Positions 9,816 to 24,776 of a DNA stretch of 64,000 bases are shown in pieces (within the stretch, counting starts at the first letter, position 1; the number at the start of each line of letters is the position of its first letter). A program made the translations under genes and the position numbers. Location of the stretch: assembly GCA_963708605.1 (NCBI GenBank), contig CAVPTG010000007.1:16288-80287 (forward strand), read 5' to 3'. Source of the stretch: Candidatus Dormiibacterota bacterium. Lineage in GTDB: Bacteria; Chloroflexota; Dormibacteria; Aeolococcales; Aeolococcaceae. Below the pieces are notes generated by a model, which was not told the origin of the DNA, did not search any database, and was given only the letters and a program-made list of their open reading frames with translations.

Positions 9816-9889
9816 TGGAGGCGACGGTGGGAATCGAACCCACGATCAGGGTTTTGCAGACCCGTGCCTTACCACTTGGCTACGTCGCC
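9816..9889 (-). tRNA. tRNA-Cys (GCA), CCA encoded
   Basis: Reverse complement GGCGACGTAGCCAAGTGGTAAGGCACGGGTCTGCAAAACCCTGATCGTGGGTTCGATTCCCACCGTCGCCTCCA folds as a cloverleaf. Confidence 0.97.
9853..9889. repeat. Left attachment core, 37-bp direct repeat
   Basis: TTTGCAGACCCGTGCCTTACCACTTGGCTACGTCGCC identical to 24740-24776. Confidence 0.95.
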
Positions 9890-9933
9890 GCTCGTATTCG
9901 GTTGTCCCCGGTTCGGTACTCTTCTCGGCCCTT

Positions 9934-9956
9934 CTGACACCTTCCCTGACACCTTC
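9934..9956 (+). repeat. Tandem CTGACACC sites, putative integrase arm-type sites (left)
   Basis: CTGACACCTTC at 9934 and 9946, 12-bp spacing; matching pair at 24611/24623. Confidence 0.75.
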
Positions 9957-10033
9957 GTGCCCTGGAGTTGTAAGCTTCCCGTAGAAGAACCCCCGCACCG
10001 CTCGAACGGCCGGGGGCATGGCCAGCAATTGAG

Positions 10034-11267
10034 GTGCTGACAGTGACGCAGTCTACCGAACCCCCGCTCGACGAGACACCCTCGCCACCTTCAAGTAGTG
10101 GGCGCCGGCGTCCGACCCGACGTGATCCAGGTGACGGTTCGATCTTTCAGCGAACCGATGGCCGCTGGGTCGCGAGGCTCCGAGTTCCTCACGGCGCCGG
10201 GTCATCCCGCTATTTCTATGCGAAGACCAAGGGGGAGGCGAAGGTCCGTCTGGCCGAGGCGAAGCGAGCGATCGAGGACGGTCGGCCGCTGCCCGATCAG
10301 CGGGTCACCGTGGGCACGTACCTCCAGGTGTGGCTCGCCGGTTTGCCGGTTGGCACCGCCAAGGCGTCGACGATCGCCTATTACGAGAAGTACGTCCGCC
10401 TCCACATCCTCACGAGCGATCTGGCGAGGAAGCCGCTGGCGCGCCTCGATGCCGCCGACCTCCGGCGCCTGTACGCCGAGAAGCTCGCCGACGGGGCTGA
10501 GCTCCACCACGGTCCACCACCTGCACGCGGTCATCCATCGGGCACTCAACAGCGCAGTCGAGGACGGCAAGCTGTCGCGCAACGTCGCGTCGCTCATCGG
10601 TCGAAGCAATCGCCCGAAGGTCGCCCGGAGGGAGATGGTCACTATCGCCAATGGCGACCAACCCCGCCGGTTCCTCATCGCTGCCAAAGGCGAGCGGCTC
10701 GAGGCGCTCCTGGTGCTCGCGCTCACGACCGGACTGCGCAAGGGCGAACTGCGCGCGCTGCGCTGGAAGGACGTGGACCTCGACCGCGGCGTGCTGGCTG
10801 TCCGCGGCTCGCTCATGGGCACAGCCAGGGCGGACATGGCGATCGGCACGCCGAAGAATGGCAAGGAGCGCGCCGTGTCGCTCGGGTCGACCGCTGTGAC
10901 AGCCCTCGGCGACCATCGGGCGCGTCAGCTCGAGGAGCGCAAGGTTGTGCCGATCCGTGGTGACCTCGGACTGGTGTTCTGCACTGAGTGGGGCGAGTTC
11001 CTACCCACGAACACCATTGTGCTCGCGCTTGAGCGGGTGCTCGCGCGCGCCGGCCTTCCGCACATTCGGTTCCATGACCTTCGGCACACTGCCGCCACCC
11101 TCATGCTCCAGCAAGGCGTCCATCCGAAGATGGCGTCGGAGATGCTCGGACACAGCAACGTGGCGATCACGCTCGACCTCTACTCGCACATCACGCCAAC
11201 GATGCAGCGCCAGGCCGCGGACGCCATCGAGCGCGCGCTGACCGACCCTCTCGTGATCCGATCGTAG
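10034..11267 (+). CDS. int: Tyrosine integrase (frameshift in GGGG near 10495)
   Basis: GDGSIFQRTDGRWVA arm domain; TGLRKGEL, FHDLRHTAAT, LGHSNVAITLDLYSH catalytic motifs. Confidence 0.93.
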
Positions 11268-11284
11268 GAAGATCGAGGGCCAAG

Positions 11285-11662
11285 ATGCGGTATCAGCAAC
11301 CCGGGTCGAGCCCTGAGATCGATTCCTCAGAGATCGAAATCCCCGACGAGCGCGACTGGGGCACCGGGAGTTTCACGACGAACTTTTTGCCGTCCGCTCT
11401 AACAGCGACCAAGGCCATTTTCTCCGTCATGGCGAACCCTCCCACGTTCTTCATAACCGCGACCATGGGCGTGGGCGGCGACATCATCGCCGTTCTCGGC
11501 GAAGTGGACGGCTCGACCGGCAAAGATCACCGGGTGTTCCTTCTTCCCAGGAATCTCGACCCGGAGCCAGCTCATTCCCTAGTCATTCACTTCAAGGATT
11601 GGCGTCTCGTTCAGGCCGATCTTGACGGCGTCTACCTAGCCACCAAGACCACGACCACATAG
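11285..11662 (+). CDS. Hypothetical cargo protein
   Basis: 125-aa ORF with normal protein composition downstream of int. Confidence 0.55.
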   Translation: MRYQQPGSSPEIDSSEIEIPDERDWGTGSFTTNFLPSALTATKAIFSVMANPPTFFITATMGVGGDIIAVLGEVDGSTGKDHRVFLLPRNLDPEPAHSLVIHFKDWRLVQADLDGVYLATKTTTT

Positions 11663-11667
11663 TCGGA

Positions 11668-13891
11668 TCACGATGGCGAACTGATGTCCAGGCCACCACG
11701 GATAGGGGTCATGCGGTGGTTTCCAGCCACTAACTGCCGCCGAAGATCGAGGGGATCGACCCCGCGCGTTTGAGGGTGAGCAGCTGATTGCGCATCTGCT
11801 TGGCGGTCGCCTCTGGACTCTGCGCGCGCCGGGATGTGGAAGTGGATACCGCCGTTCACGTTGACGCCGCCGCCCCCGCCGCCGTTCGGGGCGACGCTGG
11901 CGATGTTGATCCCGTTGCCGCCGGCCAGCGCCTGCTTGATGATCGAGCCCGTCTGGTTGTAGGCCAGGCTCGTCCCCACCGCTCGGGCGTCCGCGATGAT
12001 CCCCTGGATCAGCCCTGCGGCCCGGATCGCGTCGGCGGTGGCGTTGCGGGTGGCGATGATCTCCGCGGTCATGGCCGCGTGGTAGTCGCGCATGTCCTGC
12101 TGAGCGGTGTCAGTGCCCCGCTTGACCGCCTCGTTGTATGCCTTGATCCTGGCGAGACGGTCGTCCTCCTCCCTCTGCAAGGCGAGGTTGCGCCAGTTGT
12201 TCGGACCACCGCGACCGGTCCCAGCGCCTCCTGCGCCAACCCCCTCCCCGGGCTTAGTGGTATGCCCTCCGGTCAGGATGTTGTAGAAGTCGAAGAGAAC
12301 CCCGCCGGCGACGACCGCGCCAGCCGCGACCGTCACGCCGCGCTGCGATCGATCCGCCGCCGCCGGCACCTTCGGCCGCGTTCACAGCCCCGCTCCCGGC
12401 ACCGCCGCCGCCGGCCATCATTTCCCAGTTAGTGACGAACACCCGCTGACCGGCCGCGGACGAGGCGGCACCGAGCACACCCCCGCCGGACGAGGACGAG
12501 CTGCCAAGCCCGGTGATCGCATGGAGGAGGTTCCCCGCGACGTTCCCGGTCAACAGGGTCTTCAAGTCGCCGAGCACGCTGCCCGCGGCCGTCTTGATCT
12601 TCGCTCCCGCCCAGAGCGCGGTCATGGTTCCTGCGAAGGCTTCGAACACAGTCTTGTGGTCGACGATGAAGCCGATCACATCCTTCACCGGGGGATACAG
12701 GTCGTTGGCGATGAAGCTGCCGGCGTCCTGCGCCGCGGTGCCGAGGAATTGCACCGCGTTGACCGCGAAGCTCTCGATCTGCGCCTCGTGGCCGCTCACC
12801 CACTTGGCGATGTTGTCGAGCCCCGGGAGCAGCGCCTGGCCCGGCCACCCGAGCGACGCTCTGCATGTCCGCGCCCATGGTCGCGAACGGATTTGCCGGC
12901 CACATAGGACGATGCGGCCGCCCCCCACGTGCTTCTCGATCGGTGGTCGAGCGACGCTGCGGGCAGGTTGCGCGAACTGGTTCGCTCATCGCCTTGGTGT
13001 CGGTGGCTCACCTTCAGGGTCGCTAGCATCGAGCTTCTCGTGCGCGGCGATCGTGCTGTGCGCGCTGCCCTGTCCGTATTTGTCGAGCAGCAAGCTGATA
13101 CGCCTGCTGCGCCTTCTCCGCAGCCGCCGTTGCGCTGTTGAGCGCCGTCATCTTGGGGACGATGGTTGGCAGGATGATGCCCAGGTCCTGCAGCCCTCGT
13201 CCCTGTCCTTGGGTGGCTGTTGAGCAGGTCATCCATGGACGTGCCGAGGTCCGAGACGCCATCAGCAGAGTTTGCATCGCGCGAGGTCGCGGCGATCCAT
13301 GTCACTGGCGCCGCATCTGCTCGGTCGACCGGGATGCGTGCCTGGTGCGAGCTTCAGCAGGGCTGCGTGGTTGACTCGGTCCTCGATGAATCCGACGTGC
13401 GGCCAGCTTGTCCAGCAGTGAGCGTCGATCGGCTGCATCGGTAACCCGAGCTAGGTGGTAGCGCCTGCATGCTTCGGGCTCTGCAGTGCGGTCCGGCGAA
13501 TGCCGCCCCATTTGCGTCGTCGTATATGCCTGCGGCGATGAGGATCATCGCTGCTGGACTGCAGCCGCCTTCACGCCCTCGGCCGCCCTGCGGCCCCGCC
13601 AAAGAGCGCGCCGATCCCGGCGGTCTGGCCGACCATGGAGACGCATGCCGCCGAGCGCGCCCTTGATCGAACTGCCAACGCTTGCCGAATGCCTTGTCGA
13701 GCAGGGAGACGTTCTTCACGCCCTTGCCGCCGATCTCGCTCTCCGCAGCCTTGCCGATGCCGCCCATGCCGCCGCTCACATTGCCGAGCCGCGAACTCCA
13801 GGGATCCGGCGGCGGCCTCACCCTCGCCGGCGGCACGGACCAGGCCGGCGGATGAGCCGGTGATGTCGACAAAGAATTACTCTATGGACAT
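11668..13891 (-). CDS. Phage tail tape-measure-like protein (multiple frameshifts)
   Basis: Stitched frames: VDITGSSAGLVRAAGEGEAA..., GLQDLGII, ALLPGLDNIAKWVSGH..., GQRVFVTNW, GGGVNVNGGIHFHI; Ala/Gly-rich helical composition; about 740 codons. Confidence 0.65.
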
Positions 13892-14116
13892 GCGTCAGGT
13901 CGCTCGACGTGTCGTTGCCACGCCCCCAGCGTGGCGGTCCCGAGGAGTTGCTCGCGCTGGGATCCGACTTACTATCGCGGGGCACACTCGACCGCGAAAT
14001 AGGACACCGATCGGCGAGCGTTCGGCGCTGAAATGCGTTACACTGCAACGGAAAAGGGCCGCGCTGCTACTGAACAGCCGGCCCCGTGGCCAGACCCTGG
14101 ATTGGAGGACCTGACA

Positions 14117-14482
14117 ATGGCAATCGTACCCTGTGACCCCGTCACATCACCCGCCGCTGGTATCGGCGCGCCGTTCGCAGCATGGCACCGTGACGGGGGG
14201 TGTGACACAGCACGTGACCCCCTCACACCGAGCTGGACCCGCCAGCGTCTGGAGCGTGTCGCGCGACGTCATGGCCTGCAGCTCGTCGAGACGAGGCATC
14301 GCTGGAGCGAGGCCGACGGCGGGGGCGAGGGCGGATTCGGGCTCGTGGATTGGGAAGGTGGGGTGATCGCCTATGGCGGCGGCCTTCCCTGGCCGGGCGC
14401 AACCCTCGAGGAGGTCATCGACTTTCTGCATTCGCCGGAAGCCGAGGCGAAGGTGTGGAGGATGGAGAACTGGGGTCTGTGA
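14117..14482 (+). CDS. Hypothetical protein
   Basis: ATG after GGAGGA; in frame with ORF 14033-14482; stop overlaps the recombinase start. Confidence 0.55.
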   Translation: MAIVPCDPVTSPAAGIGAPFAAWHRDGGCDTARDPLTPSWTRQRLERVARRHGLQLVETRHRWSEADGGGEGGFGLVDWEGGVIAYGGGLPWPGATLEEVIDFLHSPEAEAKVWRMENWGL

Positions 14483-15525
14483 CCTCAGTCAAGAGGCGCA
14501 GGCGGGCCCGAATGGGCCCGCCACATCCCCGGGCCACGCGACCCAGTGCCGGCGCAGTTCGGCACCTACCTTGAGTGGCTGAGTGTCGAGCGCAACCGTC
14601 CCCGCACGACCGTCCGCACCTACCGGCAGGATCTCGCGAAATTCGTGGCGTTCCTGTCGACCACTGTCGACCTGCGCAGTCCTGACGTGCTCGAGGGCGT
14701 CGACCGGGCGGTGCTTCGGCGCTATCAGATCGAGCTCGCCGACGTGCTGCCCAATCCACGAACGCGCAACCGTTCCCTGGTGGTGCTGCGCAACTTCCTC
14801 CGCTTCGCCTATGACGAGGGTTGGACCGACGAAGGAGTTGAGCCGGCAGGTCACCCTGCCACGCTTCGTGATGGGCGACCCGCACCCGATCCCCACCGAA
14901 GACGTTCCAAAGCTGCTCGCCGCGTTGCCGAAGCGCAACCTGCGTGACCAGCGTGACCGGGCACTGGTGGCCTTCCTGATGGCGTCCGGCTGCCGCATCG
15001 CCGAGGCGCTGGCGCTGAATCGCGGCGACGTGCGCGCCGACGGCTTCCGCGTGCTCGGCAAGGGTGGAAAGCATCGAACCGTATACGTCACCGCGGCGGC
15101 ACTGGCGACGGTGCGCGAGTATCTGCGCCGGCGGGGTCCGGATCTGTCGCCGGCTCTGTTCATCAGCCTTGCGCGGAAGGACGTCTTTCAGGGTGTGCAG
15201 GCGGACAATCGGCTGACAGACAGATGGCGCCAGGAGGGCCGTGGCGGCGCTGCGCGGCCGGATGAGCACCGATGCCGAGAGCTTCCGGCTGTGGAGGGGC
15301 TTGCATTCGCCTCACGTCGCGCGTCACACCGCGGCGACCACGCTCCTCGAGGCGACCGACGGCGACGTGCGCCTGGTGCAGGAAGTCCTCGGCCACGCGT
15401 CGCTCTCGACCATGCAGATCTACACCGAGATCACCGACAAGCGGAAGAAGGAGGCCTATCGCCGGCTGAGCGCCTACCTCACCGGCGTCGCCAACCCTGA
15501 ACACCAGTCCGGCGCGCATCGATGA
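14479..15525 (+). CDS. Second tyrosine recombinase, XerC/D-like (2-3 frameshifts)
   Basis: [23 protein letters not shown] (SAM-like), [49 protein letters not shown]. Confidence 0.85.
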
Positions 15526-15997: not shown

Positions 15998-16073
15998 GGG
16001 GCTGAGTATAGAAGGCCCGCGAACACGACCGCCGAGGTTGCTATGGGCTCAGCTCTGACCCGACAATGGGCGG

Positions 16074-16229: not shown

Positions 16230-16239
16230 GGCAACCCGG

Positions 16240-16410: not shown

Positions 16411-16425
16411 ACGCGCAAGTGTGCG

Positions 16426-16974
16426 CTAGCAGGCAGGGTCACCGCCAGGATTGTGCGAGAGCAGCGGCATGGTCCAATACTGATTGCCACCAGCACCCTG
16501 GTTGGTCAGGAACGATCCATAGCCGTAGTTGTCCACGATCGCGACCGCCGGGTTGCACTCCTGACCATCGGGTCCATTGCCGTTGTAGAACGGACTGTAA
16601 TAGGCGCCGTGGTTCTGCGCCCCGGCCGGGGTAATGCCTCCAAATCCGCTCTGGTAGTACACCGGATTGGTATTGACCCCCGGCCAGTCCTCGAGCGTCA
16701 CGGCGCTGTTGGTGTTATCCATGTCGTTGTCGGAACTGGTCCATTCCATTCCGACCAGCGTGTTGTTGATGCAGATGCCCGAGTGGTTGACCCATTCCTC
16801 AAGGTAGACGTAGACCTGCCCGCTGCCGTAGGGGAAATGGCCGGCCTGCGCTGTGCGGGTGAAATTGTTGAGGTTGGTGCAACCGTTCGCCGAGGCGATC
16901 TTCGGCGATCCGATGGCGAAGGCCGACACCGTTCCGAGGATGGCAACCGTCAGGAGCGCGAGGCGTCGTTTCAC
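16426..16974 (-). CDS. Secreted Asn/Gly/Tyr-rich protein
   Basis: Signal peptide MKRRLALLTVAILGTVSAFA...ASA; four Cys in the mature part. Confidence 0.75.
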   Translation of the reverse strand: MKRRLALLTVAILGTVSAFAIGSPKIASANGCTNLNNFTRTAQAGHFPYGSGQVYVYLEEWVNHSGICINNTLVGMEWTSSDNDMDNTNSAVTLEDWPGVNTNPVYYQSGFGGITPAGAQNHGAYYSPFYNGNGPDGQECNPAVAIVDNYGYGSFLTNQGAGGNQYWTMPLLSHNPGGDPAC

Positions 16975-17017
16975 TCCCCGACGTTGCGATCAGGCCGAAC
17001 TTGCCCCGTTCACGCGC

Positions 17018-17362
17018 TCAGTCGAACCACCCGGGTAAAAGCCCGGGCAGTGCGGATGGCAGGATCTCATCCACCCACCAGTTGCGCGTGCTCGGGACGG
17101 TTTGGCCCGGTGCAACGACGTCGGGGAGGGGATACGCGGCTCTCACCACCCTCGCGTCGCCCACACGCGTCCAGTGATTGCCGGCCGCATCGATGCAGCG
17201 CCAGAGCGCCCACTCGTCGGCGTCACGCGGAAGGTCCGGAAACTGAGCCCAATCGATGCCGTCGTGGAAACCAGGGACCTGAGCCACCGGCAAGAGGGTT
17301 ACATGGTCCGTCCAGGCGAGCTCGCCGACCGGGCCCTCCATGGACACGTGCAACGCGGTCAC
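17018..17362 (-). CDS. Hypothetical Trp-rich protein
   Basis: 4-nt overlap with the upstream gene in the minus-strand operon. Confidence 0.6.
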   Translation of the reverse strand: MTALHVSMEGPVGELAWTDHVTLLPVAQVPGFHDGIDWAQFPDLPRDADEWALWRCIDAAGNHWTRVGDARVVRAAYPLPDVVAPGQTVPSTRNWWVDEILPSALPGLLPGWFD

Positions 17363-17544
17363 GCGAACACCGCCGCCTCAACCGGCAGGAGCCCGTCCTC
17401 CGCGGCCTCGTTGAGCGCGTCGGCCTCCGGATGCCCGCAGTGACCTTCGCGTTCCCAGCACTCCGCGCACAACGCGCCCTCGCACCACCAGCAGATCTCA
17501 TCGCAGCCCGGAGCAATCCCGACACCGCAACATCCGCAGGTCAC
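17359..17544 (-). CDS. Small Cys-rich zinc-finger protein
   Basis: MTCGCCG...[21 protein letters not shown]. Confidence 0.65.
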
Positions 17545-18054
17545 GCGGTCGCCTCGAACTCGAATGGCGGCGTCTGACAGAACCCTCTATGCCCGGCGAA
17601 ATAGCCGCACCGTGGCGATCCGCCGCGTCCTCCACAGTGGTCCCGTTGGTTTCGCCGGCGGTTGCGCGCCTGCGTCGAAGCGGTAGCCCAACGAGCGTTA
17701 TCCGGGCTGTATGGGCCATTGACGTCGATGCGATCGAGGGTCATCCCGAACGGCCGCGGGCCCATGTCGGCGAGAAAGTTCTCGAACCGATCCCAGCGCG
17801 GATCGATGGTGATGCCGCGGCCGCCGTAGTTGCCGAAATGCAGGTGGTGGGCGTTCCGGACCCGCTCGCGCATGCTTATCCAGCTCTTGTATTCGGGTGT
17901 TTGACCGCCTCTCGAGGCGGCGCCATGGGTGGTACGGGCTCGGGCGGCGGCCGGCATCGCCGTGCTCTCCCAGCAGGCGACACACAGCGGCGTCCGGCAA
18001 TGCCAGCAGTGCTCCGACCTGGTCGATCTCGCCCCCGCACCGACCGCAGGTCAT
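17541..18054 (-). CDS. Zinc-finger + phage HNH-like endonuclease (frameshift near 18015)
   Basis: [12 protein letters not shown]...[42 protein letters not shown]; upstream Cys-rich segment joined by one shift. Confidence 0.75.
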
Positions 18055-18066: not shown

Positions 18067-18322
18067 CTACCAGAGCGGCTGCCAGTGGGCGCCGGCGTCG
18101 CCGACGGGATTCGTGCCCTTGAGGCCGGAGACCTTGGTCACGTAGACGTGCCCGTCAGACCCGGTGGCCTGGGCGCCGAGCGCGTAGCTGATCGATGCGC
18201 TCCATGTGGCAACGTCCTGGTGGACAACCGCGAACTGCTGTGTTCCGTCAGGCCAGGTCGGCTGACCCGAGATCGGGCGCAAGAAAGATCGTTCCTGTCG
18301 GTGCCGATGTCGGCGTGGTCAT
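18067..18322 (-). CDS. Small protein with CBM5/12 (ChtBD3)-like domain (frameshift near 18283)
   Basis: WSASISYALGAQATGSDGHVYVTK...NPVGDAGAHWQ aromatic spacing. Confidence 0.55.
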
Positions 18323-18919
18323 CGCTGAGGTGCGCCCCGGCCTGCGCACGTGCCGTTGCCGGCCGCAGACACAGCCAGCGGCGTGCGAGCGTACCCGATG
18401 CCATCGACCCAGGCGTCGTACCAGCGTCGGACGCTGCCCGGCGCCCTCGAGGTTCGCTGCGGTTGCCGAGGTCAGGCCGACGCGTCGCAGGCGATCGCGA
18501 AGGCGCGGGCGTCGGTCGACACGCGCGACCCTGACGGCGGATCTCGTCGCACCATGCCCTGGAGCGACGCCAGCGCTTCCTGCGGCGTCAACGCAGCGGG
18601 CACGGCGGGTGGCGCCACGGTGCGGGCTGCGGTGAGCACGACGGTTCGGGTCGAGCGTGAGCAGTGCGATGGCAGGCGTCCGGCGAGCTGCTTCGCGCAA
18701 CCGCGGTGAGCTGTGCGCGGCGTCAGGTAGCAAACGATCCTCGGGCACTGCCGCGAACCGTGGTTGCGCTGCCGGGTGGCATCCATGACCGCATCGGTGG
18801 CTGCGTCGTGTCGAGGCGTTCGCGCGGCGCAGCGCCGGATCTCGATGAGCGGCTCGCCGGTGCTCGAGCTGCGGTTCCGGCGTCCGCGGGTCTCGGATCA
18901 TCTCGCTGAGTGTCGGCAT
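18319..18919 (-). CDS. Hypothetical protein, frameshifted
   Basis: ATG after GGAGA (MPTLSEMIRDP...); fragments in several frames; ATGA overlap with the next gene. Confidence 0.35.
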
Positions 18920-19100
18920 GTTGGTCTCCAGGTGGTGAGGCGAATGAGGGCGACGCCAACGGTGCCTAACCCGCAACCAAGAAGCACAGCCGTCCGTTGG
19001 CCGTCGCCTCGCCTGCATCTTCGCGCTGCGCGAGGGTTGCGTCCGCGGCGAACAGGCGCCACGATTAGGCGCGCTGGGCGAGCTTGAAGAAGGAGAAGCC

Positions 19101-19214
19101 ATGAGAGGACGCACTTGGGGGATGGAGGCTCAGACGATTGCGTTCTGCGTGGTCTGGGCGATCGGCCTGCTGATTCTTATCGCCGTTCTCAATGCCCTCA
19201 CCACGGTTAAGTAG
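19101..19214 (+). CDS. 30-37-aa single-TM microprotein
   Basis: (MRGRTWG)MEAQTIAFCVVWAIGLLILIAVLNALTTVK; AGGAGA upstream of 19101, alternative ATG at 19122. Confidence 0.5.
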   Translation: MRGRTWGMEAQTIAFCVVWAIGLLILIAVLNALTTVK

Positions 19215-19443
19215 CGTCTGGCGAGTGAGGGTGGCGACGCCCCAGGTGACGCAGCCAGGTGCAGTGGAAAACAGCCCAACCGCAGGGGCGCCGCCGTGAG
19301 TTGCGAGACGATGGCGCGCCCCGCACCGTCTTGACCCAGCGCGGGACGCGCCGACCGATCAACCACGACGATCATCGGGTATGGTCAGGTTTGCCGCTGC
19401 TGCGAGTGGAAAGTCTCGACCTCAGCGGTCATGATTGCCCGTA

Positions 19444-19599
19444 ATGGGAAGGCACGCGGTCGTGGCGGCAGCCGTGGCCTTCGTCGTCGTGGCAGTCTGG
19501 CTCGCCGTGGCGCTAGTCCTGGTCACGCCCGTCACGGCGCCGGGGCCGGCGCAAATCATCCCGACGTTCAGCGGCATCCCGAACGCCCTCTCGTCATGA
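19444..19599 (+). CDS. 51-aa single-TM microprotein
   Basis: MGRHAVVAAAVAFVVVAVWLAVALVLVTPVTAPGPAQIIPTFSGIPNALSS; CATGAT 8 nt upstream. Confidence 0.6.
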   Translation: MGRHAVVAAAVAFVVVAVWLAVALVLVTPVTAPGPAQIIPTFSGIPNALSS

Positions 19600-19607
19600 T
19601 TGCCCGC

Positions 19608-19805
19608 ATGGGAAGGCTTCTGCGGCAGATCGGCATCGCGACGCTGATGACGGCCGTCGTCGTCGTGCCGATGGTTGTCTTGGGCCCGCGGCCCGCGCGT
19701 CCGGAACCTGACGTCATTGCACCTTGCCGTTCGCCCAACAGGTCGCTCGGATCGCCGCGCCCCCGACCTTCACGGCCACGCCGAAGCGCGCCAGCGCCCT
19801 CGTGA
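19608..19805 (+). CDS. Small single-TM protein, paralogous start to 19444
   Basis: MGRLLRQIGIATLMTAVVVVPMVVLGP...; CATGAT 7 nt upstream; C-terminus may be frameshifted. Confidence 0.5.
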   Translation: MGRLLRQIGIATLMTAVVVVPMVVLGPRPARPEPDVIAPCRSPNRSLGSPRPRPSRPRRSAPAPS

Positions 19806-19806
19806 G

Positions 19807-20355
19807 GTGAACCGGCTGCTCGCGGGTCTAGCCATCTCCGGAGCGGCGCTCGCGGCGGCGAGTTGCAGTCCTGGAGGCACGACGGTCAATAGCCCGTCGA
19901 CGCCCGACACATCGACATCCAAACCAGCCGCGGCGTCGGCTCACGTTGGCGCCACGCTAACGCTGAATGGCCTCACCTCCGAGAAGCTGCAGATCACCGT
20001 CGTGAAGCTGGTCGACCCAGCACCGCCGTCCAGCCAGTTCGAGGCCCCGCCGGCTGGCACTCGCGAGATTGCGCTCGAGATCCGCTACAAGAACATGGGC
20101 ACCGTGACCTACAACCAGAGCATCCTCACCGACATCACGGTGGTCGACAAGGGCTCACACGACTTCAGCGTCGATCTCGCCTACGACACCTCTGCCGGCC
20201 CTGGCTTTCCGAGCGACAACGTCGACATCGCGCCAGGCGAGACCGAGGACGGTTTCGTGCCCTTCCAGGTCGAGACGGCATCAGTGATCAGCGAAGTGAA
20301 AATTGGCCTCGACGAAGGCTTCGGGCCAGATACCGGCGAATGGCTGGTCCCGTAA
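19807..20355 (+). CDS. DUF4352-like lipoprotein
   Basis: Lipobox-like LAAASC; VGATLTL...KLQITV...YKNMG...IAPGETEDGFVPFQV Ig-like fold pattern. Confidence 0.75.
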   Translation: MNRLLAGLAISGAALAAASCSPGGTTVNSPSTPDTSTSKPAAASAHVGATLTLNGLTSEKLQITVVKLVDPAPPSSQFEAPPAGTREIALEIRYKNMGTVTYNQSILTDITVVDKGSHDFSVDLAYDTSAGPGFPSDNVDIAPGETEDGFVPFQVETASVISEVKIGLDEGFGPDTGEWLVP

Positions 20356-20415
20356 GGTCCAAACCCTGGCGTACTCTCAGGCTGTGGCGCAACGGATCTT
20401 TCAGAGGAGCGAGGA

Positions 20416-20649
20416 ATGACGTTCATCGAGATCGCGGGTAACAGGAAGGCGTGGGTCAACACGGATGCCATTGCGTCGATCGAGGAAGGCCCGGAGCACC
20501 ACGGCGCAATAGTGGCGCTGGCTGGTGGTGACCACTATCACGTCACCGATGGCGCCGATGCGGCACGGATCGCGGTCATCGAAGCGGCGAACGGCGGCAA
20601 ATCCATCCTCCTCCGTGATGAAAGCGTTGAGGCTGCGCCCGTCGAGTAA
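20416..20649 (+). CDS. Hypothetical protein
   Basis: GAGGA RBS; WVNTDAIASIEE small beta-rich domain. Confidence 0.6.
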   Translation: MTFIEIAGNRKAWVNTDAIASIEEGPEHHGAIVALAGGDHYHVTDGADAARIAVIEAANGGKSILLRDESVEAAPVE

Positions 20650-20725
20650 CGATCCTCAGCGCACGACCGACTTCCTAAGGGCGGGTCAATTGCGCAGTCA
20701 TCAGACGTGTACGGGTCTAAGCGAT

Positions 20726-21642
20726 ATGGCTATGACGACGGGTTCGACTGGGAACGCCAGATGGACGGTTGAGTTCGCGCGGCGACTTGCGCTCGTGCGT
20801 TACACGCTGCAGCTCGCTCAGGACCAAGCAGAGATCGCCATCCCCTCCACGCCCCGGCACTCCTGCTGATGCACGATGCCGCCGAACTCTTCCTCGTCCT
20901 TGTCGCCCAAGCATCGGACGCCGACGTCAAGAGCAGCATGGAGTTCCTGGCTTACTGGGACGTGATCGACACAAAGCTAGCGCCGGACCAACTCGGGCAC
21001 AAAGCCGAGATGGCTGCGATCAACAAGGCCCGTGTGGGGTTCAAGCACTCTGGTGTCATACCCAGCAGAGCCGAGATCCGACGCTTCGTTGCGATGACAC
21101 GCTCGTTCCTCGAGGACGCGACGCCGACCGTCTTTGGAGTTGCCCTCGATCAGGCGACGTTGGTCGACCTCGTTCCGTCCGCAGCAGTGCGCACTGCGCT
21201 CCAAGAGGCGGAGGCCGCAATCGCGGCAGGTGATGTGGCGACTGCCATGGGAAGGGCGCGGGTCGGATTCGAGTTGAGCTTGCGCGAAGACGATGAACGT
21301 GTCCGTCAGGCCACAGGCAGTCATCCACTCCGGATCACCGCCGCACATCTGCCCTCGGCCTTCTCGTTGAGCCTCCAGAAACTCCACGGCCAGTTCGGGC
21401 TGGCATGGGACGACCTGATCGCGGTAGTGAAGCGGACGGATGATGCCGTGCGCTTGATGGCGAAGGGCATCGATTACGCCGACTACATGCGCTTCGCGGC
21501 ACTCACGCCGCATCCCTTCTGGTCGTACGGACGCGACGAGCCGACTTTGATCAGCGGCGCCTCACAAGCCGCGGCGACGATCGACGACGCGCGCTGGGCC
21601 GTGGACTTCGCGATCCGCTCCGTGCTGATCGTCCTCGGCTGA
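20726..21642 (+). CDS. HEPN-like protein, candidate defence/toxin (frameshift near 20835)
   Basis: RRLALVRYTLQLAQDQ..HPLHAPALLLMHDAAELFL ... INKARVGFKH (R-x4-H). Confidence 0.55.
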
Positions 21643-21647
21643 GCGAT

Positions 21648-21671
21648 GAAGGTGTCAGGTTTGGGTGTCAG
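21648..21671 (-). repeat. Internal inverted copy of the tandem CTGACACC site pair
   Basis: Reverse complement CTGACACCCAAACCTGACACCTTC versus 24611-24633 CTGACACCCAACCTGACACCTTC. Confidence 0.85.
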
Positions 21672-21728
21672 ACGCGGGGCAACGGCACCTCGTGAATACG
21701 GGCCGGGTGAGTGTGTGAGACCCGCGCC

Positions 21729-22229
21729 TTAGCCGGCAGCGTCGATCCGTAGCGCGGCTTCGTGGAGCAGGGGGGTCGCGCCGCCCTGATAGAGCCCGTA
21801 CCTGATTTTGCTCTCGCAACCCGGACAGAGCTCGAGTTCCGCGGCAGCCATCTGGATCCCGATGAGCACCACCTTGTTGACCTCGGTGCGGAGTTCGTCG
21901 TTGATCTTCGTCTCCGGTTCCCACGCGCCAGCCTCGGAAGCCATCTTGGCGATGGTTGCAGCCTGACGAATCGCCTCGGCGTAGTAGGGCTGACCCTCAG
22001 CCGTCATGAGTGCGGCGCTGCGATCAAGCGCCTCCAGGAGCACATCATTCGGCCGGCGACCGCGCTCAACGAGTTTCGCGGGCAATGTGGTCATCGCGAC
22101 CCGGAGCTTGGCCTTGCGCCGGACGCGCGGCGCCTTGCCGCCGTGGAAGTCGCACACCGTGCCGCCGAGCATCGATTGACGTCCGCACTGCTGGCCTTGA
22201 CGATTCGTCGCGTGGCAGCGATCGCTCAT
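21729..22229 (-). CDS. HGGxSTG-like zinc-knuckle protein, putative terminase small subunit
   Basis: RCHATNRQGQQCGRQSMLGGTVCDFHGGKAP followed by a helical region. Confidence 0.6.
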   Translation of the reverse strand: MSDRCHATNRQGQQCGRQSMLGGTVCDFHGGKAPRVRRKAKLRVAMTTLPAKLVERGRRPNDVLLEALDRSAALMTAEGQPYYAEAIRQAATIAKMASEAGAWEPETKINDELRTEVNKVVLIGIQMAAAELELCPGCESKIRYGLYQGGATPLLHEAALRIDAAG

Positions 22230-22306
22230 GGGGTCTCGCTCATCTCATGGGGTTGTTCGGTCTGGCGGGGATGTCAGTAGTCTGAGGACGTCACGGCCTT
22301 GCGCTT

Positions 22307-23251
22307 TCATCCGACCGGTGGCACCGCTGCGCGCATCCGCTGAGTGACATAGCGGTCGTACGCGACGAGCGCCGCTTCGAATCGAGGTCGATCACGAAGG
22401 AACGTCGCATCTCGGATCGCCTCCTCGAGGTCTGCGAGAGGTCGATCGGCGAAGAAGATATCGGGTCGATCCCTGACGATCGCCCTGCGCCGGCGGAGTT
22501 CTCGGAGTGCGAGTATCGCCATTCGATCACTCCACGCCTCGTCGGTCGCCTGTGCGTGCTCCCTGCCCTTCTGCGCTGGCCGTCGGCGATGGTTTGCGCT
22601 CGGCGGTGGTCCTCGGCTTCCATCCACCCGGGTGGCAAACCTTGCCCTGATGGCTCTGGCACGCCGGCGACGCGTCGACACTCATCGATCGCGGTTCGCA
22701 TATCGACGTCCTTGGTCGGTTTCTGATCGCCTCCAGCATCCTCGGATGCGTCGTCGCCTCTGATCAGACTCTGATCTAAAGATCTGTTATCAGATCTGTT
22801 AAATAGGAACCGTAGGCGTTTCGTCCATGGTCGGTGGATGATTCGCCCATGGTTGAGGGACGGAATTACCACGGTCGAAGCCAGGATCGCCCATGGTCAC
22901 CTGGGCGGATCGCCCATAGTCACCGTGGGAGTTTCGACCATGGTTAGGGGAACTCCTGAACCGATCGATATTGTCGCGAAGTGCCTCGACGCGGATGCGA
23001 TATCTCGACGGATTGGATCGCGATGTGCCGCGCTGGTACTCGAGCTCACCGAGCCTTTCTAGGTCGTTGATCCCGAGGTTCGCAGTCTTGCGATCGAGCC
23101 GCGCCAGCCAGGCGATGCGGTCGAGCGACGCGTGCGTCCAGCCATTCTCGTTCCTGTTGCCGAGCGCCGCGATCGCCTGACCCACCAGGTAGGCGCGGTG
23201 CTGAGCGTTGCTGCGCGCTTGGAAGAGTTCGGTTGTCTTCCAATCGCTCAT
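22307..23251 (-). CDS. Phage-type replication initiator (N-terminal wHTH, iteron linker; frameshifted)
   Basis: ASLDRIAWLARLDRKTANLGINDLERLGELEYQRG...RYRI; repeats inside the gene. Confidence 0.65.
22759..22945. other. Putative replication origin: iterons plus AT-rich region
   Basis: CCAYRGT cores at 22825, 22847, 22869, 22891, 22914, 22938; AGATCTGTTA twice (22780, 22792). Confidence 0.7.
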
Positions 23252-23583
23252 TGCAGCCAGCCCTGAGCATCGAGGATCCGCAAGATGCGGCTCCATTGTT
23301 CCAGGTCGATGACCACGTAGGCGCTCGAGATGCTGGCGCGCCTGCGCTTGAAGATGACGCACCACCAGCGGGCGCCGGCGTTCTTCGCTTCCTTCTCGGC
23401 CTCGGCGACTGCGCGACCCATCTCCATGACGCCGGTGTTCTTGAGCTCCATGCAGACGTTCGGGATGCCGGCCACATCGCCGCGGTCGAGAGAGCCGCCC
23501 ATGACGCGCCGCTCCGCCTTGTCCCAGCCCTCCGCCCGGAGGTAAGCGATCACGTCGGCCTCGAATTTCGGCCCGCGCTTCAT
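23248..23583 (-). CDS. Phage Holliday-junction resolvase-like PD-(D/E)xK nuclease
   Basis: GPKFEADV...DRGDVAG...MELKN...FKRR. Confidence 0.75.
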   Translation of the reverse strand: MKRGPKFEADVIAYLRAEGWDKAERRVMGGSLDRGDVAGIPNVCMELKNTGVMEMGRAVAEAEKEAKNAGARWWCVIFKRRRASISSAYVVIDLEQWSRILRILDAQGWLQ

Positions 23584-23972
23584 GCCGGCTCGCCTGACAT
23601 GGCTTCGCGATACAGCTCGCTGAGACGCTCACGACTGACGCCAAGGGCCTCGGCGACTGTGACGAACGCCTCCGCAACTTTGACGTCAAGCCGTCCTCGA
23701 AGTTCGCAGCACCGCAACAAGCCAAGGACGACAGATGCGATCTCGCCGCTCGGCTCGAGGGCGCCATCTACCTTGAGTTCGGCCTGCCAAAGGGTAAGCG
23801 CGCCCACGGCAAGGCGAAACAGGCGGTCGTTCTCACGGACGGCAGCTGCGATCCGGTCGGTACGTTCTGCCGGGCCGTATATCCAGTCGGGATCCCAGTC
23901 CGGTCCGGGGGCAGCCTCGTCGTCCGTGGGATGATCGATGTGTTGATCGCGGTGGGCGGCGGCATCTTTCAT
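23580..23972 (-). CDS. Hypothetical protein
   Basis: ATGA overlaps on both sides. Confidence 0.65.
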   Translation of the reverse strand: MKDAAAHRDQHIDHPTDDEAAPGPDWDPDWIYGPAERTDRIAAAVRENDRLFRLAVGALTLWQAELKVDGALEPSGEIASVVLGLLRCCELRGRLDVKVAEAFVTVAEALGVSRERLSELYREAMSGEPA

Positions 23973-24193
23973 GTGGTGTCGCTGCCTCCCGGCCCTTTCG
24001 TCGACCGGAGCCGCTCGAGATACGCGCGGAGCGACGACTCGACGACACGCGTCGCCCGAGCGCCGAGGGAAACCGCCTCAAGCTCCCCGCGGCCAACCAG
24101 TCGCCACGCCTGGCGTTCGGAGATTCCGAGACGCCGCCCAGCCTCACCGACGGACACCAGCAGAGGGGGCTCGAGAACTGTATGGGTGTTCAT
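23969..24193 (-). CDS. Excisionase/AlpA-like HTH protein
   Basis: LLVSVGEAGRRLGISERQAWRLVGRGEL. Confidence 0.85.
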   Translation of the reverse strand: MNTHTVLEPPLLVSVGEAGRRLGISERQAWRLVGRGELEAVSLGARATRVVESSLRAYLERLRSTKGPGGSDTT

Positions 24194-24267
24194 CGCGACC
24201 TACCCTGCCAGTGGGTGCCTGTTGCCCCTACGCGGTGTGGAAATGGGCGCCAAGCCGTCGTCCATCG

Positions 24268-24516
24268 CTATCCGTGGTCGGGGAGTTCAGCCTGGACGCG
24301 CTCCGCGATATAGCTGCTGACACTGCTCGCCGGGATGCGCCGCAGCCGGCCGACGTGAATCGAACTGAGGTCGCCGGCGACGATCAACCTCCAGACGAAC
24401 GAGCGGCTGCAGCCGAGCATCTCGGCCACCTCCACATCACGCAATAGCCGGTCGGGCGCGGCCAGAGTTGGGGCGGTCGCTTCCAAAGGTTTGTCTCCTT
24501 GCGCTGCTGTGTGCAA
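24268..24516 (-). CDS. Excisionase-like HTH protein
   Basis: LLRDVEVAEMLGCSRSFVWRLIVAGDLSSIHVGRLRRIP. Confidence 0.85.
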   Translation of the reverse strand: MHTAAQGDKPLEATAPTLAAPDRLLRDVEVAEMLGCSRSFVWRLIVAGDLSSIHVGRLRRIPASSVSSYIAERVQAELPDHG

Positions 24517-24520
24517 CTAG

Positions 24521-24537
24521 GAGTTCCAGTAGAACTC
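24521..24537. promoter_or_regulatory. Inverted repeat upstream of the xis operon, possible operator
   Basis: GAGTTC-N5-GAACTC. Confidence 0.4.
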
Positions 24538-24610
24538 GGAAGCGTTACGACCGATCAACCCAAGCGTTGCTCGCCGCGCACCCGTGAATGGATAAAGACG
24601 CGAGCCCGAG

Positions 24611-24633
24611 CTGACACCCAACCTGACACCTTC
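24611..24633 (+). repeat. Tandem CTGACACC sites, putative arm-type sites (right)
   Basis: CTGACACC at 24611 and 24623, 12-bp spacing. Confidence 0.75.
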
Positions 24634-24739
24634 GTCAGTGAATGCGCCGCAACGCCGGTGGACGCGACAGGCTGTCTAGGCGCTTGTTTCGTATTCGGGA
24701 GACACTCTCTGCAACGTCTGTGGACGGTACAAACCGGAC

Positions 24740-24776
24740 TTTGCAGACCCGTGCCTTACCACTTGGCTACGTCGCC
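24740..24776. repeat. Right attachment core; displaced 5' half of tRNA-Cys
   Basis: 37-bp exact match to 9853-9889. Confidence 0.95.

What the first reader, a model, noticed from the sequence alone, without database searches (positions are those of the whole stretch)
9853..24776. Capsid-less, satellite-like element combining TerS-like, tape-measure-like and second-recombinase genes
Seen in sequence: a 14,887-bp unit between exact 37-bp repeats. It has int at one end and a translationally coupled xis-hyp-resolvase-rep run at the other, flanked by a second xis and a TerS-like gene. It also has an iteron origin, an HNH-like gene, a tape-measure-like gene and a XerC-like recombinase. I could not recognise a capsid, portal, TerL, tail tube, lysin or cI/Stl repressor. 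Established: PICIs are about 15 kb, encode integrase, replication functions and often TerS, and borrow helper virions; Gram-negative PICIs use AlpA-type regulators. A primase/helicase is typical there, not a lambdoid initiator, and a tape measure is not part of the standard core. Inference: this may be a distinct satellite type that redirects both packaging and tail assembly of a helper siphovirus.
Basis: partly seen in the sequence, partly recalled or inferred. Interest (0 to 1): 0.85.

Follow-up and report, generated by a model that had tools for sequence, protein, structure and literature searches.

The report
Decayed relic of capsid-less phage-derived island
This is a real 14.9-kb phage-derived island inserted in a tRNA-Cys gene, but it looks like a broken copy of a small, previously undescribed family whose intact members carry their own DNA-packaging enzymes and a tail tape-measure gene yet no capsid genes.

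Summary
The element is real. Exact 37-bp repeats (9853-9889, 24740-24776; the 5' half of tRNA-Cys) bound a 14,887-bp insertion, and a complete genome of the same genus has the empty site.

Confirmed: integrase, two HTH_17 xis-like genes, a coupled xis-hyp-RusA-wHTH run, a five-copy iteron array, an HNH gene, a tape-measure homologue and a Xer-like recombinase. No capsid, portal, TerL or tail gene was found.

Not supported: the "TerS-like" call. That gene is an HGGxSTG zinc-ribbon protein with no significant terminase match.

In this assembly the integrase, Xer-like and tape-measure genes are frameshifted, while flanking host genes are intact.

Two diverged relatives at the same site (L016; L019/G119) are about 14 kb, with all these genes intact and under purifying selection. 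Between the tape-measure gene and int they carry a P27/HK97-type TerS and a TerL. Both are missing here without remnant.

So the homologous loci are not full prophages. A real capsid-less family exists, plausibly a new satellite type, and this window holds a decayed, probably immobile member.

Helper dependence and tail redirection are untested. The frameshifts could not be checked against reads.

The parts
9816..9889 (-). tRNA-Cys(GCA). It is the only tRNA-Cys found in the assembly, and its 5' half (9853-9889) is the attL core.
   Evidence: ARAGORN; Rfam 68.1 bits; aragorn on the whole genome finds one tRNA-Cys among 48 tRNAs.
9853..9889 (.). attL core, an exact 37-bp repeat.
   Evidence: The same 37-mer bounds the element in L016 and lies at the tRNA end of L019.
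9934..9953 (+). Pair of CTGACACC motifs, a candidate arm-type Int-binding site on the attL side.
   Evidence: 7 matches in the window against 2.35 expected. Also present beside the tRNA in L019 and G119.
10055..11264 (+). Tyrosine integrase, out of frame. The N-terminal part is in one frame to about 10489 and the C-terminal part in another from 10491.
   Evidence: Pfam PF00589 E = 2.7e-27 and phrog_1. tblastn with the intact L016 int gives two frames. There is a 1-nt insertion relative to both L016 and L019.
11268..11741 (.). Unrelated filler at the position where intact relatives carry TerS and TerL. The packaging module is absent.
   Evidence: No tblastn match of L016 or L019 TerS/TerL anywhere in the window at E <= 0.01.
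11742..13891 (-). Tape-measure-like pseudogene. It has the full-length footprint of a ~700-aa protein, broken into at least 10 frame changes.
   Evidence: Collinear tblastn to 528-709-aa homologues P0001-P0006 in three frames. About 25 window-specific indels of 1 to 61 nt lie in the first 1.56 kb. Homology to a bona fide TMP is shown.
14102..14464 (+). Small conserved gene of the Xer module (homologue of L016 9478-9873).
   Evidence: tblastn 69% identity in a single frame.
14362..15522 (+). Xer-like tyrosine recombinase, out of frame (frames 1, 2, 3, 1).
   Evidence: Pfam PF02899 and PF00589, and NCBIfam XerC/XerD, split over three ORFs. Four tblastn segments. Two 1-nt insertions and one 3-nt deletion relative to three homologues. 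L016's copy is 73% aa identical to the host's own intact Xer on contig C9.
15549..15782 (+). Small conserved gene of the Xer module (homologue of L016 8160-8444).
   Evidence: tblastn 76% identity.
16426..17362 (-). Two window-specific ORFs (182 and 114 aa) of unknown function.
   Evidence: Coding-like GC3. No Pfam, PHROG, NCBIfam or PADLOC hit. The 114-aa ORF has a 32%-identical relative in the G014 element.
17359..17957 (-). HNH endonuclease (138 aa) followed by a conserved 60-aa ORF.
   Evidence: phrog_8790, 374 and 3377, E about 1e-34. 72-78% identity to L016.
18070..18358 (-). Homologue of a conserved 113-aa family gene (L016 6399-6737), split over two frames.
19675..21642 (+). Opposite-strand cargo: a DUF4352/phrog_806-like protein (19675-20355) and a phrog_37995 protein (20869-21642). 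Neither is present in L016 or L019.
21651..21671 (-). Third, inverted pair of CTGACACC motifs, between convergent genes.
21729..22229 (-). Function unassigned.
   Evidence: NF041373 E = 3.8e-6 (26.5 bits, cut-off 29) and phrog_3678. Atlas and fold searches.
22760..22943 (-). Candidate replication origin: five iterons (22820-22943), then an AT/GATC-rich stretch (22760-22815).
22799..23251 (-). 150-aa wHTH initiator-like protein whose 3' end contains the iterons.
   Evidence: Weak hits only: phrog_19658 replication initiation protein E = 0.0056 and HTH_36 E = 0.05. Anatomy.
23248..23583 (-). RusA-like Holliday junction resolvase.
   Evidence: phrog_244 E = 7e-20. 83% identity to L016.
23580..23972 (-). 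Conserved 130-aa hypothetical protein.
   Evidence: Homologues in L016 (35%) and L019 (49%).
23969..24516 (-). Two HTH_17 (AlpA/excisionase-type) genes: 23969-24193 and 24268-24516.
   Evidence: PF12728 E = 2.5e-7 and 2.7e-10; TIGR01764.
24611..24630 (+). Pair of CTGACACC motifs on the attR side.
24740..24776 (.). attR core, a displaced copy of the tRNA 5' half.

Best explanation
The interval is a genuine integrated, phage-derived, capsid-less island.

Shown:
- It entered by tyrosine-integrase recombination within the first 37 nt of the single tRNA-Cys gene. The intact tRNA therefore now has element DNA upstream.
- It is one member of a small family of ~14-kb elements at this same site in related genomes.
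- Intact members (L016; L019/G119) have this order: two HTH_17 genes, hyp, a variable replication module, (RusA), small orphan genes, (HNH), an opposite-strand Xer-like module, a ~700-aa tape-measure homologue, a P27/HK97-type TerS, TerL, and a convergent int.

Inferred, for the family:
- These are helper-dependent satellites. They excise with Int and Xis and replicate from their own origin.
- They cut and package their own DNA with their own HNH/TerS/TerL into capsids supplied by a helper phage.
- The tape-measure homologue acts in tail assembly or DNA delivery.

For the window's copy (inferred from the assembly):
- It is a decayed relic. TerS-TerL are gone and the tape-measure gene is riddled with indels.
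- int and the Xer-like gene are frameshifted, so the copy can probably no longer excise or be packaged.
- It differs from the relatives in carrying a wHTH-initiator/iteron origin, an HGGxSTG protein and two opposite-strand cargo genes.
For: - Insertion and boundaries.
- Family synteny at the same att site with the same host flanks: L016; L019; G119.
- Intact genes in relatives: TerL matches phrog_9 at E = 4.8e-25 and 7.8e-24, and at 22-28% identity to annotated terminase large subunits of isolate phages.
- TerS in relatives: Pfam Terminase_6 E = 1.6e-4, below cut-off. The nearest ESM Atlas clusters are Hendrixvirinae/Terminase_4 small terminases at 0.94-0.92.
- Tape measure.
- No capsid or portal hit among the 88 ORFs of the 108 listed for L016 that were scanned, and none among the 17 selected L019 ORFs scanned against PHROGs only. 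The one conserved mid-size orphan is only about 195 aa.
- Purifying selection between L016 and L019: dN/dS is 0.18 for TerL, 0.19 for int, 0.28 for Xer, 0.33 for TerS and 0.42 for TMP.
- Mobility and mosaicism: the replication modules differ among the three copies.
- Mobility and mosaicism: the window's int is closer to L019's (dN 0.12 against 0.24 to L016), although its host flank proteins are closer to L016's (98.6-98.8% against 91-92% identity).
- Active site: related integrases with different cargo occupy the same site in G014 and G016.
- Decay of this copy. Eleven host ORFs from the flanks of G119 and L016 each map to the window in a single frame. Long coding-like ORFs cover 25% of the element against 72% of the rest of the window.
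Against: - The frameshifts could not be checked against reads, because no run was listed.
- About 14 of roughly 25 tape-measure indels, and all 3 int/Xer frameshifts that were localised, are 1-nt insertions. That bias would also fit long-read consensus error in a poorly covered region.
- Branch-specific dN/dS on the window lineage is still low (int 0.13, Xer 0.26). Inactivation of those two genes is therefore recent or artefactual.
- No helper phage, encapsidated form or excised circle was seen.
- The family's TerL and TMP have only distant relatives in IMG/VR: 20-21% identity for TerL and 30% for TMP.
- The family is known from few independent lineages: the window, L016 (the same as L017 and L018), and L019/G119. 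A few further protein-only relatives could not be placed in context.
Confidence: 0.6

Rival explanations
1. Ordinary cryptic prophage. The window's element and its relatives are vertically inherited deletion remnants of a full siphovirus prophage that once integrated at tRNA-Cys. The conserved small size is shared ancestry, not a lifestyle.
For: The locus and host flanks are the same in all copies. Element nucleotide divergence (71-81%) is only somewhat greater than flank divergence (81-84%). The window's copy is visibly decaying. All recognisable genes are phage-type.
Against: The relatives keep intact int, xis, TerS, TerL and TMP with dN/dS of 0.18-0.42 at dS of about 0.8-1.2. The order HNH ... 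TMP-TerS-TerL-int cannot be produced from the usual HNH-TerS-TerL-head-tail-TMP order by deletions alone. The int and host-flank affinities are incongruent. Replication modules are swapped. Empty sites exist in the same genus. TerL occurs in only 1 of 116 other family genomes and the TMP fragment in 0 of 116.
Confidence: 0.2
2. It is a functional satellite whose apparent frameshifts are assembly errors. It uses the HGGxSTG protein as a TerS to redirect a helper's TerL, and its tape measure to alter helper tails.
For: The excess of 1-nt insertions and the low window-branch dN/dS for int and Xer. The right-hand module (xis to rep) and the HNH gene are in frame. The HGGxSTG protein's nearest named Atlas clusters are small terminases, at lead level only.
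Against: The tape-measure gene also carries window-specific 61-, 13-, 6-, 5- and 4-nt indels, which consensus error does not produce. Host genes beside the element are clean. TerS-TerL are truly absent. No profile or fold match links HGGxSTG to TerS.
Confidence: 0.12
3. This is a non-viral integrative island, a mobilisable or merely site-specific cargo island, that has captured phage genes. TerL, TerS and TMP serve some non-packaging role such as defence or interference with incoming phages.
For: No helper was identified. An opposite-strand Xer module resembling the host's own Xer is embedded. Opposite-strand cargo genes are present. Elements with related integrases at this site carry quite different cargo.
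Against: No PADLOC defence hit among 36 proteins tested. No conjugation or relaxase hit in Pfam or PHROG scans. HNH + P27-type TerS + TerL is a coherent cos-packaging set.
Confidence: 0.08

Closest known systems
PICIs (phage-inducible chromosomal islands), as defined for SatelliteFinder in de Sousa et al. 2023, PMC10085698 (passages read)
   Same: Size of about 10-15 kb, an integrase at one end, HTH_17 (AlpA/MerR-type) genes heading the main operon, an autonomous replication module, no capsid or tail genes, and a packaging gene at the int-distal or int-proximal end.
   Different: PICIs carry TerS only and typically no other phage structural or packaging genes. This family's intact members carry TerL, an HNH gene and a tape-measure homologue. 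The window's copy has no confirmed TerS and no primase-replicase.
cfPICIs (capsid-forming PICIs; same paper, passages read)
   Same: Own TerS and TerL. HNH is recalled as part of many cfPICIs and was not checked in the text.
   Different: cfPICIs are defined by capsid, head-tail adaptor and connector genes. None is present here or in L016, and none was detected in L019.
EPIPs, 11-kb satellites of Mycolicibacterium aichiense prophage HerbertWM (preprint PMC12822802, whole text read)
   Same: A small phage-dependent element that encodes a tape measure protein. The preprint links this to altered tail length. The preprint states that TMPs are otherwise unknown in satellites, apart from a TMP-like protein proposed for PLE11.
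   Different: EPIPs have a serine integrase, TerS, head-tail adaptor and stopper, and scaffold and capsid-related genes, and were isolated as particles. The present family has a tyrosine integrase at tRNA-Cys, TerL, HNH, RusA and a Xer-like module, and is known only from sequence.
HK97-type cos packaging module (HNH endonuclease + P27-family TerS + TerL). The role of HNH is recalled, not checked in a paper here.
   Same: The intact relative L016 has all three components. L019 has TerS and TerL but no clear HNH domain.
   Different: In phages the module is followed by portal, protease and capsid genes. Here it is preceded by a tape-measure gene and followed directly by int.
Lambda O / ori-type replication origin (recalled)
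   Same: An initiator-like wHTH gene that contains an array of same-sense iterons, followed by an AT-rich stretch.
   Different: The protein is only 150 aa and ends at the AT-rich region. No Phage_rep_O or other initiator family reached significance.

Membership tests
PICI | Integrase | tested here: met
   PF00589 and phrog_1. The gene is frameshifted in this assembly.
PICI | Regulator of AlpA/MerR/Stl type next to the main operon | tested here: inconclusive
   Two HTH_17 genes. SatelliteFinder's own AlpA/MerR/Stl profiles were not available.
PICI | Primase-replicase module | tested here: not met
   No primase or helicase hit in the window. It has a wHTH initiator-like gene plus iterons instead. 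The relatives L016 and L019 do have AAA_25/phrog_906 helicase-type genes.
PICI | Small terminase subunit | tested here: not met
   No TerS family hit for any window ORF. The HGGxSTG protein is unsupported as TerS. The TerS of the relatives is absent here.
PICI | No other phage structural or packaging components | tested here: not met
   Tape-measure homologue in the window. TerL in the relatives.
cfPICI | Capsid, head-tail adaptor and connector genes plus TerL | tested here: not met
   No such hits in the window or L016, nor among the 17 L019 ORFs scanned against PHROGs. TerL occurs only in the relatives.
P4-like satellites | Alpha-type primase/helicase, Sid/Psu/Delta-type capsid-size and transactivation genes (recalled list) | tested here: not met
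   PHROG and Pfam scans of all window ORFs of 65 aa or more gave none. The dedicated SatelliteFinder models were not run.
EPIP satellites | Serine integrase, TerS, head-tail adaptor and stopper, scaffold/capsid-related genes, TMP (PMC12822802) | tested here: not met
   Only the TMP feature is shared. The integrase is of tyrosine type.
Siphovirus tail tape measure proteins | Sequence homology to established TMP families | tested here: met
   The window fragment matches phrog_973 at E = 5.5e-5. Family member P0002 matches phrog_4704 at E = 2.9e-4. hhalign of the family profile against the G014 TMP gives probability 98.6% and E = 6.7e-16. That G014 protein matches 15 PHROG TMP families (plus one of unknown function), down to E = 5e-31. 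Pfam gives no hit for P0001, and a PDB sequence search gave none.
Siphovirus tail tape measure proteins | Genomic context among tail genes (chaperones upstream, distal tail and tip proteins downstream) | tested here: not met
   In L016 and L019 the gene is followed by TerS-TerL-int. No tail genes are nearby, apart from one weak hit (E = 0.003, tail completion/Neck1) for the L019 ORF just upstream of the TMP gene.
Cryptic (defective) prophage or decayed mobile element | Integrated at an att site, phage-type genes, inactivating mutations or deletions of essential functions | tested here: met
   The caveat is that the indels are unverified by reads.
XerC/XerD tyrosine recombinases | SAM-like N-domain plus catalytic domain, scoring above the equivalog cut-off | tested here: inconclusive
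   Both domains are present but split over three frames, each far below the NCBIfam cut-offs. L016's intact copy is 73% identical to the host's own Xer.

The most novel reading that the evidence does not exclude
L016, L019/G119 and this window's relic represent a new class of phage satellite in uncultured soil and peat bacteria. The only named relative locus is from a Candidatus Dormiibacterota MAG. Such elements would carry a complete HK97-like packaging motor (HNH, TerS, TerL) and their own tape measure protein, but no capsid or tail genes. They would take over both DNA packaging and tail-length determination or DNA delivery of a helper siphovirus. They would also integrate, unusually, into the 5' half of tRNA-Cys, and so supply that tRNA's upstream region.
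Probability: 0.35. Interest if true: 0.75.

Novelty: new variant of a known kind. Interest (0 to 1): 0.5.

Why it matters
If the family is a satellite, it fills a gap between two known types. PICIs borrow the helper's TerL and encode only TerS. cfPICIs encode the whole head. This family would bring the full motor and a tape measure, but no shell.

It would also be a sequence-level counterpart, in a barely studied and uncultured lineage, to the recent experimental claim that satellites can carry tape measure proteins.

The window's own copy matters less. It illustrates how such an element decays in place once its packaging module is lost. It also shows that a single-copy tRNA gene can remain dependent on element DNA upstream of it.

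Tried and rejected
Searches that found nothing or little:
- Nucleotide search of the whole element against 50,697 phage records: no match.
- tblastn of the 224-aa TMP fragment and of full-length P0001 against the same phage records: no match.
- IMG/VR scans. The HGGxSTG protein gave none. TMP gave one 30% relative, L015, which was not followed up. TerL gave only 20-21% relatives.
- The first genome-contig scan with the TMP alignment found none.
- PDB sequence search with the TMP profile: 0 hits at E <= 1.
- PADLOC on 36 proteins gave only one weak HTH hit, mad1 at E = 2.8e-4, for an xis-like gene.
- Promoter and terminator consensus scans at both ends found nothing.
- Own-genome searches for a helper. 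No portal PF04860 and no phrog_9 TerL. One capsid-family fragment lies on another contig. The genome is 80% complete, so absence is weak evidence.

Steps that were unavailable or inconclusive:
- The look-up of sequencing runs listed no run for 9700-17700 ('none was listed'). Indels, attP and empty attB could therefore not be checked in reads, and read laying was not used.
- The AF2 model of the L019 TerS candidate was of low confidence (pLDDT 63). Foldseek against PDB gave nothing at E <= 0.001, with the HK97 small terminase only at rank 39 and E = 3.9. This was treated as uninformative.
- The AF2 model of the HGGxSTG protein matched only uncharacterised phage proteins at TM 0.23-0.28.
P0003 and P0011 are recorded with the same longest-contig length (11,777 bp), so they may sit on one contig, but this was not shown. 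The closest relative of the window's own variant therefore stays unseen.

Ideas considered and rejected:
- An alternative genetic code or programmed frameshifting as the cause of the broken frames. Host genes read normally under table 11, and the indels are irregular in size and position.
- One or several portal or capsid genes hidden among the unknown ORFs of L016. None of the unknown ORFs exceeds about 200 aa.

Supplementary files of the two papers were not consulted.

Full report
**1. The observation**

ARAGORN and Rfam place a tRNA-Cys(GCA) at 9816-9889 on the minus strand. The repeat finder gives an exact 37-bp direct repeat at 9853-9889 and 24740-24776, 14,887 bp apart. The repeat covers tRNA nucleotides 1-37, which is the 5' half.

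In G018, a one-contig genome of the same genus, window 5761-9889 and 24843-25567 are contiguous around an intact tRNA-Cys. G003 shows nearly the same arrangement. So 9890-24739 is an insertion with exactly the proposed boundaries.

Pairs of CTGACACC motifs sit just inside both ends, with a third, inverted pair at 21651-21671. The motif occurs 7 times in the window against 2.35 expected. The end pairs look like arm-type integrase sites. This is the only tRNA-Cys that aragorn finds in the 80%-complete assembly.

**2. Gene content of the window's element**

I scanned 101 ORFs of 65 aa or more against Pfam and PHROGs, and 58 of them against NCBIfam. They give the following.

- A tyrosine integrase.
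- A weak tape-measure hit.
- A Xer-like recombinase split over three ORFs.
- An HNH endonuclease.
- A DUF4352/phrog_806 protein and a phrog_37995 protein on the opposite strand.
- An HGGxSTG protein.
- A RusA resolvase.
- Two HTH_17/excisionase-type genes.

xis, hyp, RusA and a 150-aa wHTH protein overlap start-to-stop by 4 nt. The 3' end of the wHTH gene holds five same-strand copies of CYATGGNCGAW, spaced 22-44 nt apart. That is 5 of the 6 matches in 64 kb against 0.54 expected, though the motif was derived from this very sequence. An AT/GATC-rich stretch follows. This anatomy resembles a lambda-type origin. The protein itself has only weak initiator hits.

Nothing resembling a capsid, portal, TerL, tail tube or lysin was detected.

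It is a zinc-ribbon plus helical protein with no terminase support.

- NCBIfam HGGxSTG scores below its cut-off, and phrog_3678 has no known function.
- Of 929 relatives at E <= 0.001 in 1.84 billion representatives, most of the 150 listed match only the first ~50 residues.
- A pLDDT-74 model finds uncharacterised Microbacterium-phage proteins at TM 0.23-0.28.
- Atlas terminase clusters appear only at 0.82 and 0.79.

**3. The copy is broken**

- **Tape measure.** A search for longer homologues of the 224-aa tape-measure-like ORF found six proteins of 528-709 aa. They align collinearly to window 13891-11742 across all three minus-strand frames. Ungapped HSPs change frame at least ten times. A nucleotide alignment with the two intact relatives lists about 25 window-specific indels in 1.56 kb. 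These range from 1 to 61 nt, and 14 of them are 1-nt insertions. The alignment is only 63-70% identical, so individual events are uncertain.
- **Integrase.** int has a 1-nt insertion relative to both relatives.
- **Xer-like gene.** It runs through four frame segments, with two 1-nt insertions and a 3-nt deletion relative to three homologues.
- **Small gene.** One small conserved gene is split.
- **Host genes.** By contrast, eleven host ORFs taken from the flanks of G119 and L016 each map to the window in one frame. Long coding-like ORFs cover 72% of the host part of the window but only 25% of the element.

I could not verify the indels in reads, because no run was listed. Two observations leave local assembly error open for int and Xer. 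One is the excess of 1-nt insertions. The other is the still-low branch-specific dN/dS on the window lineage, 0.13 for int and 0.26 for Xer. The larger indels in the tape-measure gene argue for real decay there.

**4. Relatives**

A metagenome scan with the tape-measure alignment returned four loci.

- **L016.** It lies on a 113-kb contig. L017 and L018 are 99.7-99.9% identical copies of it and are not independent.
- **L019.** It is more diverged. G119 in the same genus carries the L019-type copy, truncated at a contig end.

L016 has the same host flanks (81-84% nt identity) and the same 37-bp repeats 14.0 kb apart. Its homologues of the window's xis genes, hyp, RusA, a small orphan, HNH, the Xer module, TMP and int lie in the same order.

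In L016 and L019 these genes are intact: TMP 709/660 aa, Xer 414/371 aa and int 399/408 aa. Between TMP and int lie two further genes.

- A 148-153-aa protein. Its best leads are P27/HK97-type small terminases: Pfam Terminase_6 at E = 1.6e-4, below the cut-off, and Atlas clusters at 0.94-0.92.
- A ~485-aa TerL. It matches phrog_9 at E about 1e-24, and annotated terminase large subunits of isolate phages at 22-28% identity.

The window has no trace of either gene.

The replication modules differ. L016 has an AAA_25 protein, L019 has a phrog_906-type helicase, and the window has the wHTH/iteron unit.

I scanned 88 of the 108 ORFs listed for L016 against both PHROGs and Pfam. The 20 left out overlap the TMP gene or lie beyond the att site. 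No capsid or portal family appeared. For L019, 17 selected ORFs were scanned against PHROGs only, again with no capsid or portal hit. The only conserved unassigned gene of any size has gene calls of about 195 aa. The family is therefore capsid-less by content and by available space.

**5. Is the family alive?**

Nei-Gojobori dN/dS between L016 and L019 is 0.18 (TerL), 0.19 (int), 0.28 (Xer), 0.33 (TerS) and 0.42 (TMP), at dS of about 0.8-1.2. These genes have therefore been under purifying selection.

The order HNH ... TMP-TerS-TerL-int is not what deletions would leave of a standard siphovirus prophage.

The window's host flank proteins are closer to L016's (98.6-98.8% and 87.8% identity) than to G119's (91-92% and 85.6%). 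Its integrase, however, is closer to L019's (dN 0.12 against 0.24), while its Xer-like gene is closer to L016's. That incongruence, together with the module swaps, argues against purely vertical descent.

The site is also used by related integrases with other cargo.

- G016 carries a ~5.4-kb element there.
- G014 carries an element with a second integrase, a serine recombinase and an 848-aa bona fide tape measure protein.

That G014 TMP links the family protein to established TMPs. hhalign gives a probability of 98.6% and E = 6.7e-16.

The family is rare. TerL occurs in 1 of 116 other genomes of the taxonomic family, and the TMP fragment in 0 of 116.

A further ~14-kb element lies on the opposite (3') side of tRNA-Cys in a MAG titled Candidatus Dormiibacterota. 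It has a TerL 61% identical to L016's TerL, a helicase and an unrelated integrase. The window's own taxon was not determined.

**6. Mechanism**

Shown: site-specific insertion in the tRNA 5' half, a phage-type gene set, absence of head and tail genes, selection on the relatives' genes, and loss or breakage of key genes in this copy.

Inferred, for the family:
- Excision by Int with one of the HTH_17 proteins, with the other HTH_17 protein acting as an AlpA-like regulator.
- Replication from an own origin, with RusA resolving junctions.
- Cos cutting and packaging by its own HNH, TerS and TerL into procapsids of an unidentified helper.
- The tape-measure homologue built into helper tails, or acting in DNA delivery.

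The embedded Xer-like gene is, in L016's intact copy, 73% identical to the host's own Xer. It may resolve multimers.

No helper is evident in this genome. There is no portal and no phrog_9 TerL, and only one capsid-family fragment elsewhere. The genome is 80% complete.

**7. Comparison with known systems**

Against the SatelliteFinder definitions (PMC10085698, passages read):
- The element shares with PICIs its size, int, an HTH_17 regulator candidate and autonomous replication.
- It fails on primase-replicase and TerS.
- It violates 'no other phage components' through TMP, and through TerL in the relatives.
- It lacks the capsid, adaptor and connector genes that define cfPICIs.

EPIPs are 11-kb Mycolicibacterium satellites (PMC12822802, whole text read). 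They are the closest precedent for a satellite-borne tape measure, but they use a serine integrase and carry head-related genes.

A literature search for 'phage satellite', 'large terminase' and 'tape measure' (345 papers holding at least two terms, 20 listed) surfaced no description of a TerL+TMP, capsid-less satellite. A search for Dormibacterota plus prophage gave 6 papers, none on such elements judged from their listings. This is not proof of absence. Supplementary files were not seen.

**8. Verdict**

- The family-level idea is plausible and gains real support from conserved, selected synteny.
- The specific copy in this window is best read as a decayed, probably immobile relic that has lost the family's packaging module.
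- Novelty: a new variant of a known kind (phage satellite or defective phage-derived island).
- Interest is moderate. The family deserves a look in viromes. The window's copy by itself is ordinary decay.

Noticed in passing
window 9816-9889 and 24740-24776: The element duplicates the 5' half of the tRNA, not the 3' part that tRNA-targeting integrases usually regenerate (recalled). The only tRNA-Cys found in the assembly therefore now has element DNA upstream, while the native upstream region sits beside the displaced half-copy.
   Followed up: partly
window 21651-21671: A third, inverted pair of the CTGACACC arm-type motif lies between the convergent phrog_37995 and HGGxSTG genes. It could be a relic of a second att arm or recombination joint, or an internal Int-binding site.
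   Followed up: no
window 14362-15522; G000 contig C9 17786-18769: L016's intact copy of the element's Xer-like recombinase is 73% aa identical to the host's own intact Xer. The element copy matches a ~70%-nt homologue in 24 of 24 sampled genomes of the genus. G014 and G016 have extra copies. This suggests capture of a host xer gene by the element family.
   Followed up: partly
L021 (DASYVJ010000086.1), about 4406-18000: A different ~14-kb island lies on the 3' side of tRNA-Cys in a Candidatus Dormiibacterota MAG. It has a TerL 61% identical to L016's TerL, a helicase, an unrelated tyrosine integrase and no recognisable head genes. This may be a second capsid-less, TerL-bearing lineage.
   Followed up: partly
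L027 (G014 contig C61, 24000-40000), locus coordinates about 3970-16000: At the same tRNA-Cys site lie a related integrase (57% aa identity), a second integrase, an 848-aa bona fide tape measure protein, a serine recombinase/invertase, and homologues of two of the window's unknown ORFs. No other tail genes are recognisable in the stretch examined.
   Followed up: partly
L028 (G016 contig C193), locus coordinates 1873-7302: Only about 5.4 kb lies between the same att repeats, with a related integrase (59% aa identity). This is a minimal occupant of the same site. ARAGORN did not call the tRNA there.
   Followed up: no
G000 contig C4 329372-329734: An isolated match to the HK97-type capsid family PF05065 (positions 110-238 of 280, within a 173-aa open frame). 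There is no portal or phrog_9 TerL elsewhere in the assembly. It may be another prophage fragment.
   Followed up: no
window 26591-26680: ARAGORN calls a 90-nt tRNA-Arg(GCG) here, but Rfam's tRNA model does not reach its gathering score. It is probably a false call or an unusual or degenerate tRNA.
   Followed up: no
window 9816-9889 and 25482-25568: tRNA-Cys and tRNA-Leu(TAA) are divergent neighbours in the empty-site genomes, about 1-2 kb apart in G018 and G003. The island sits between them.
   Followed up: partly
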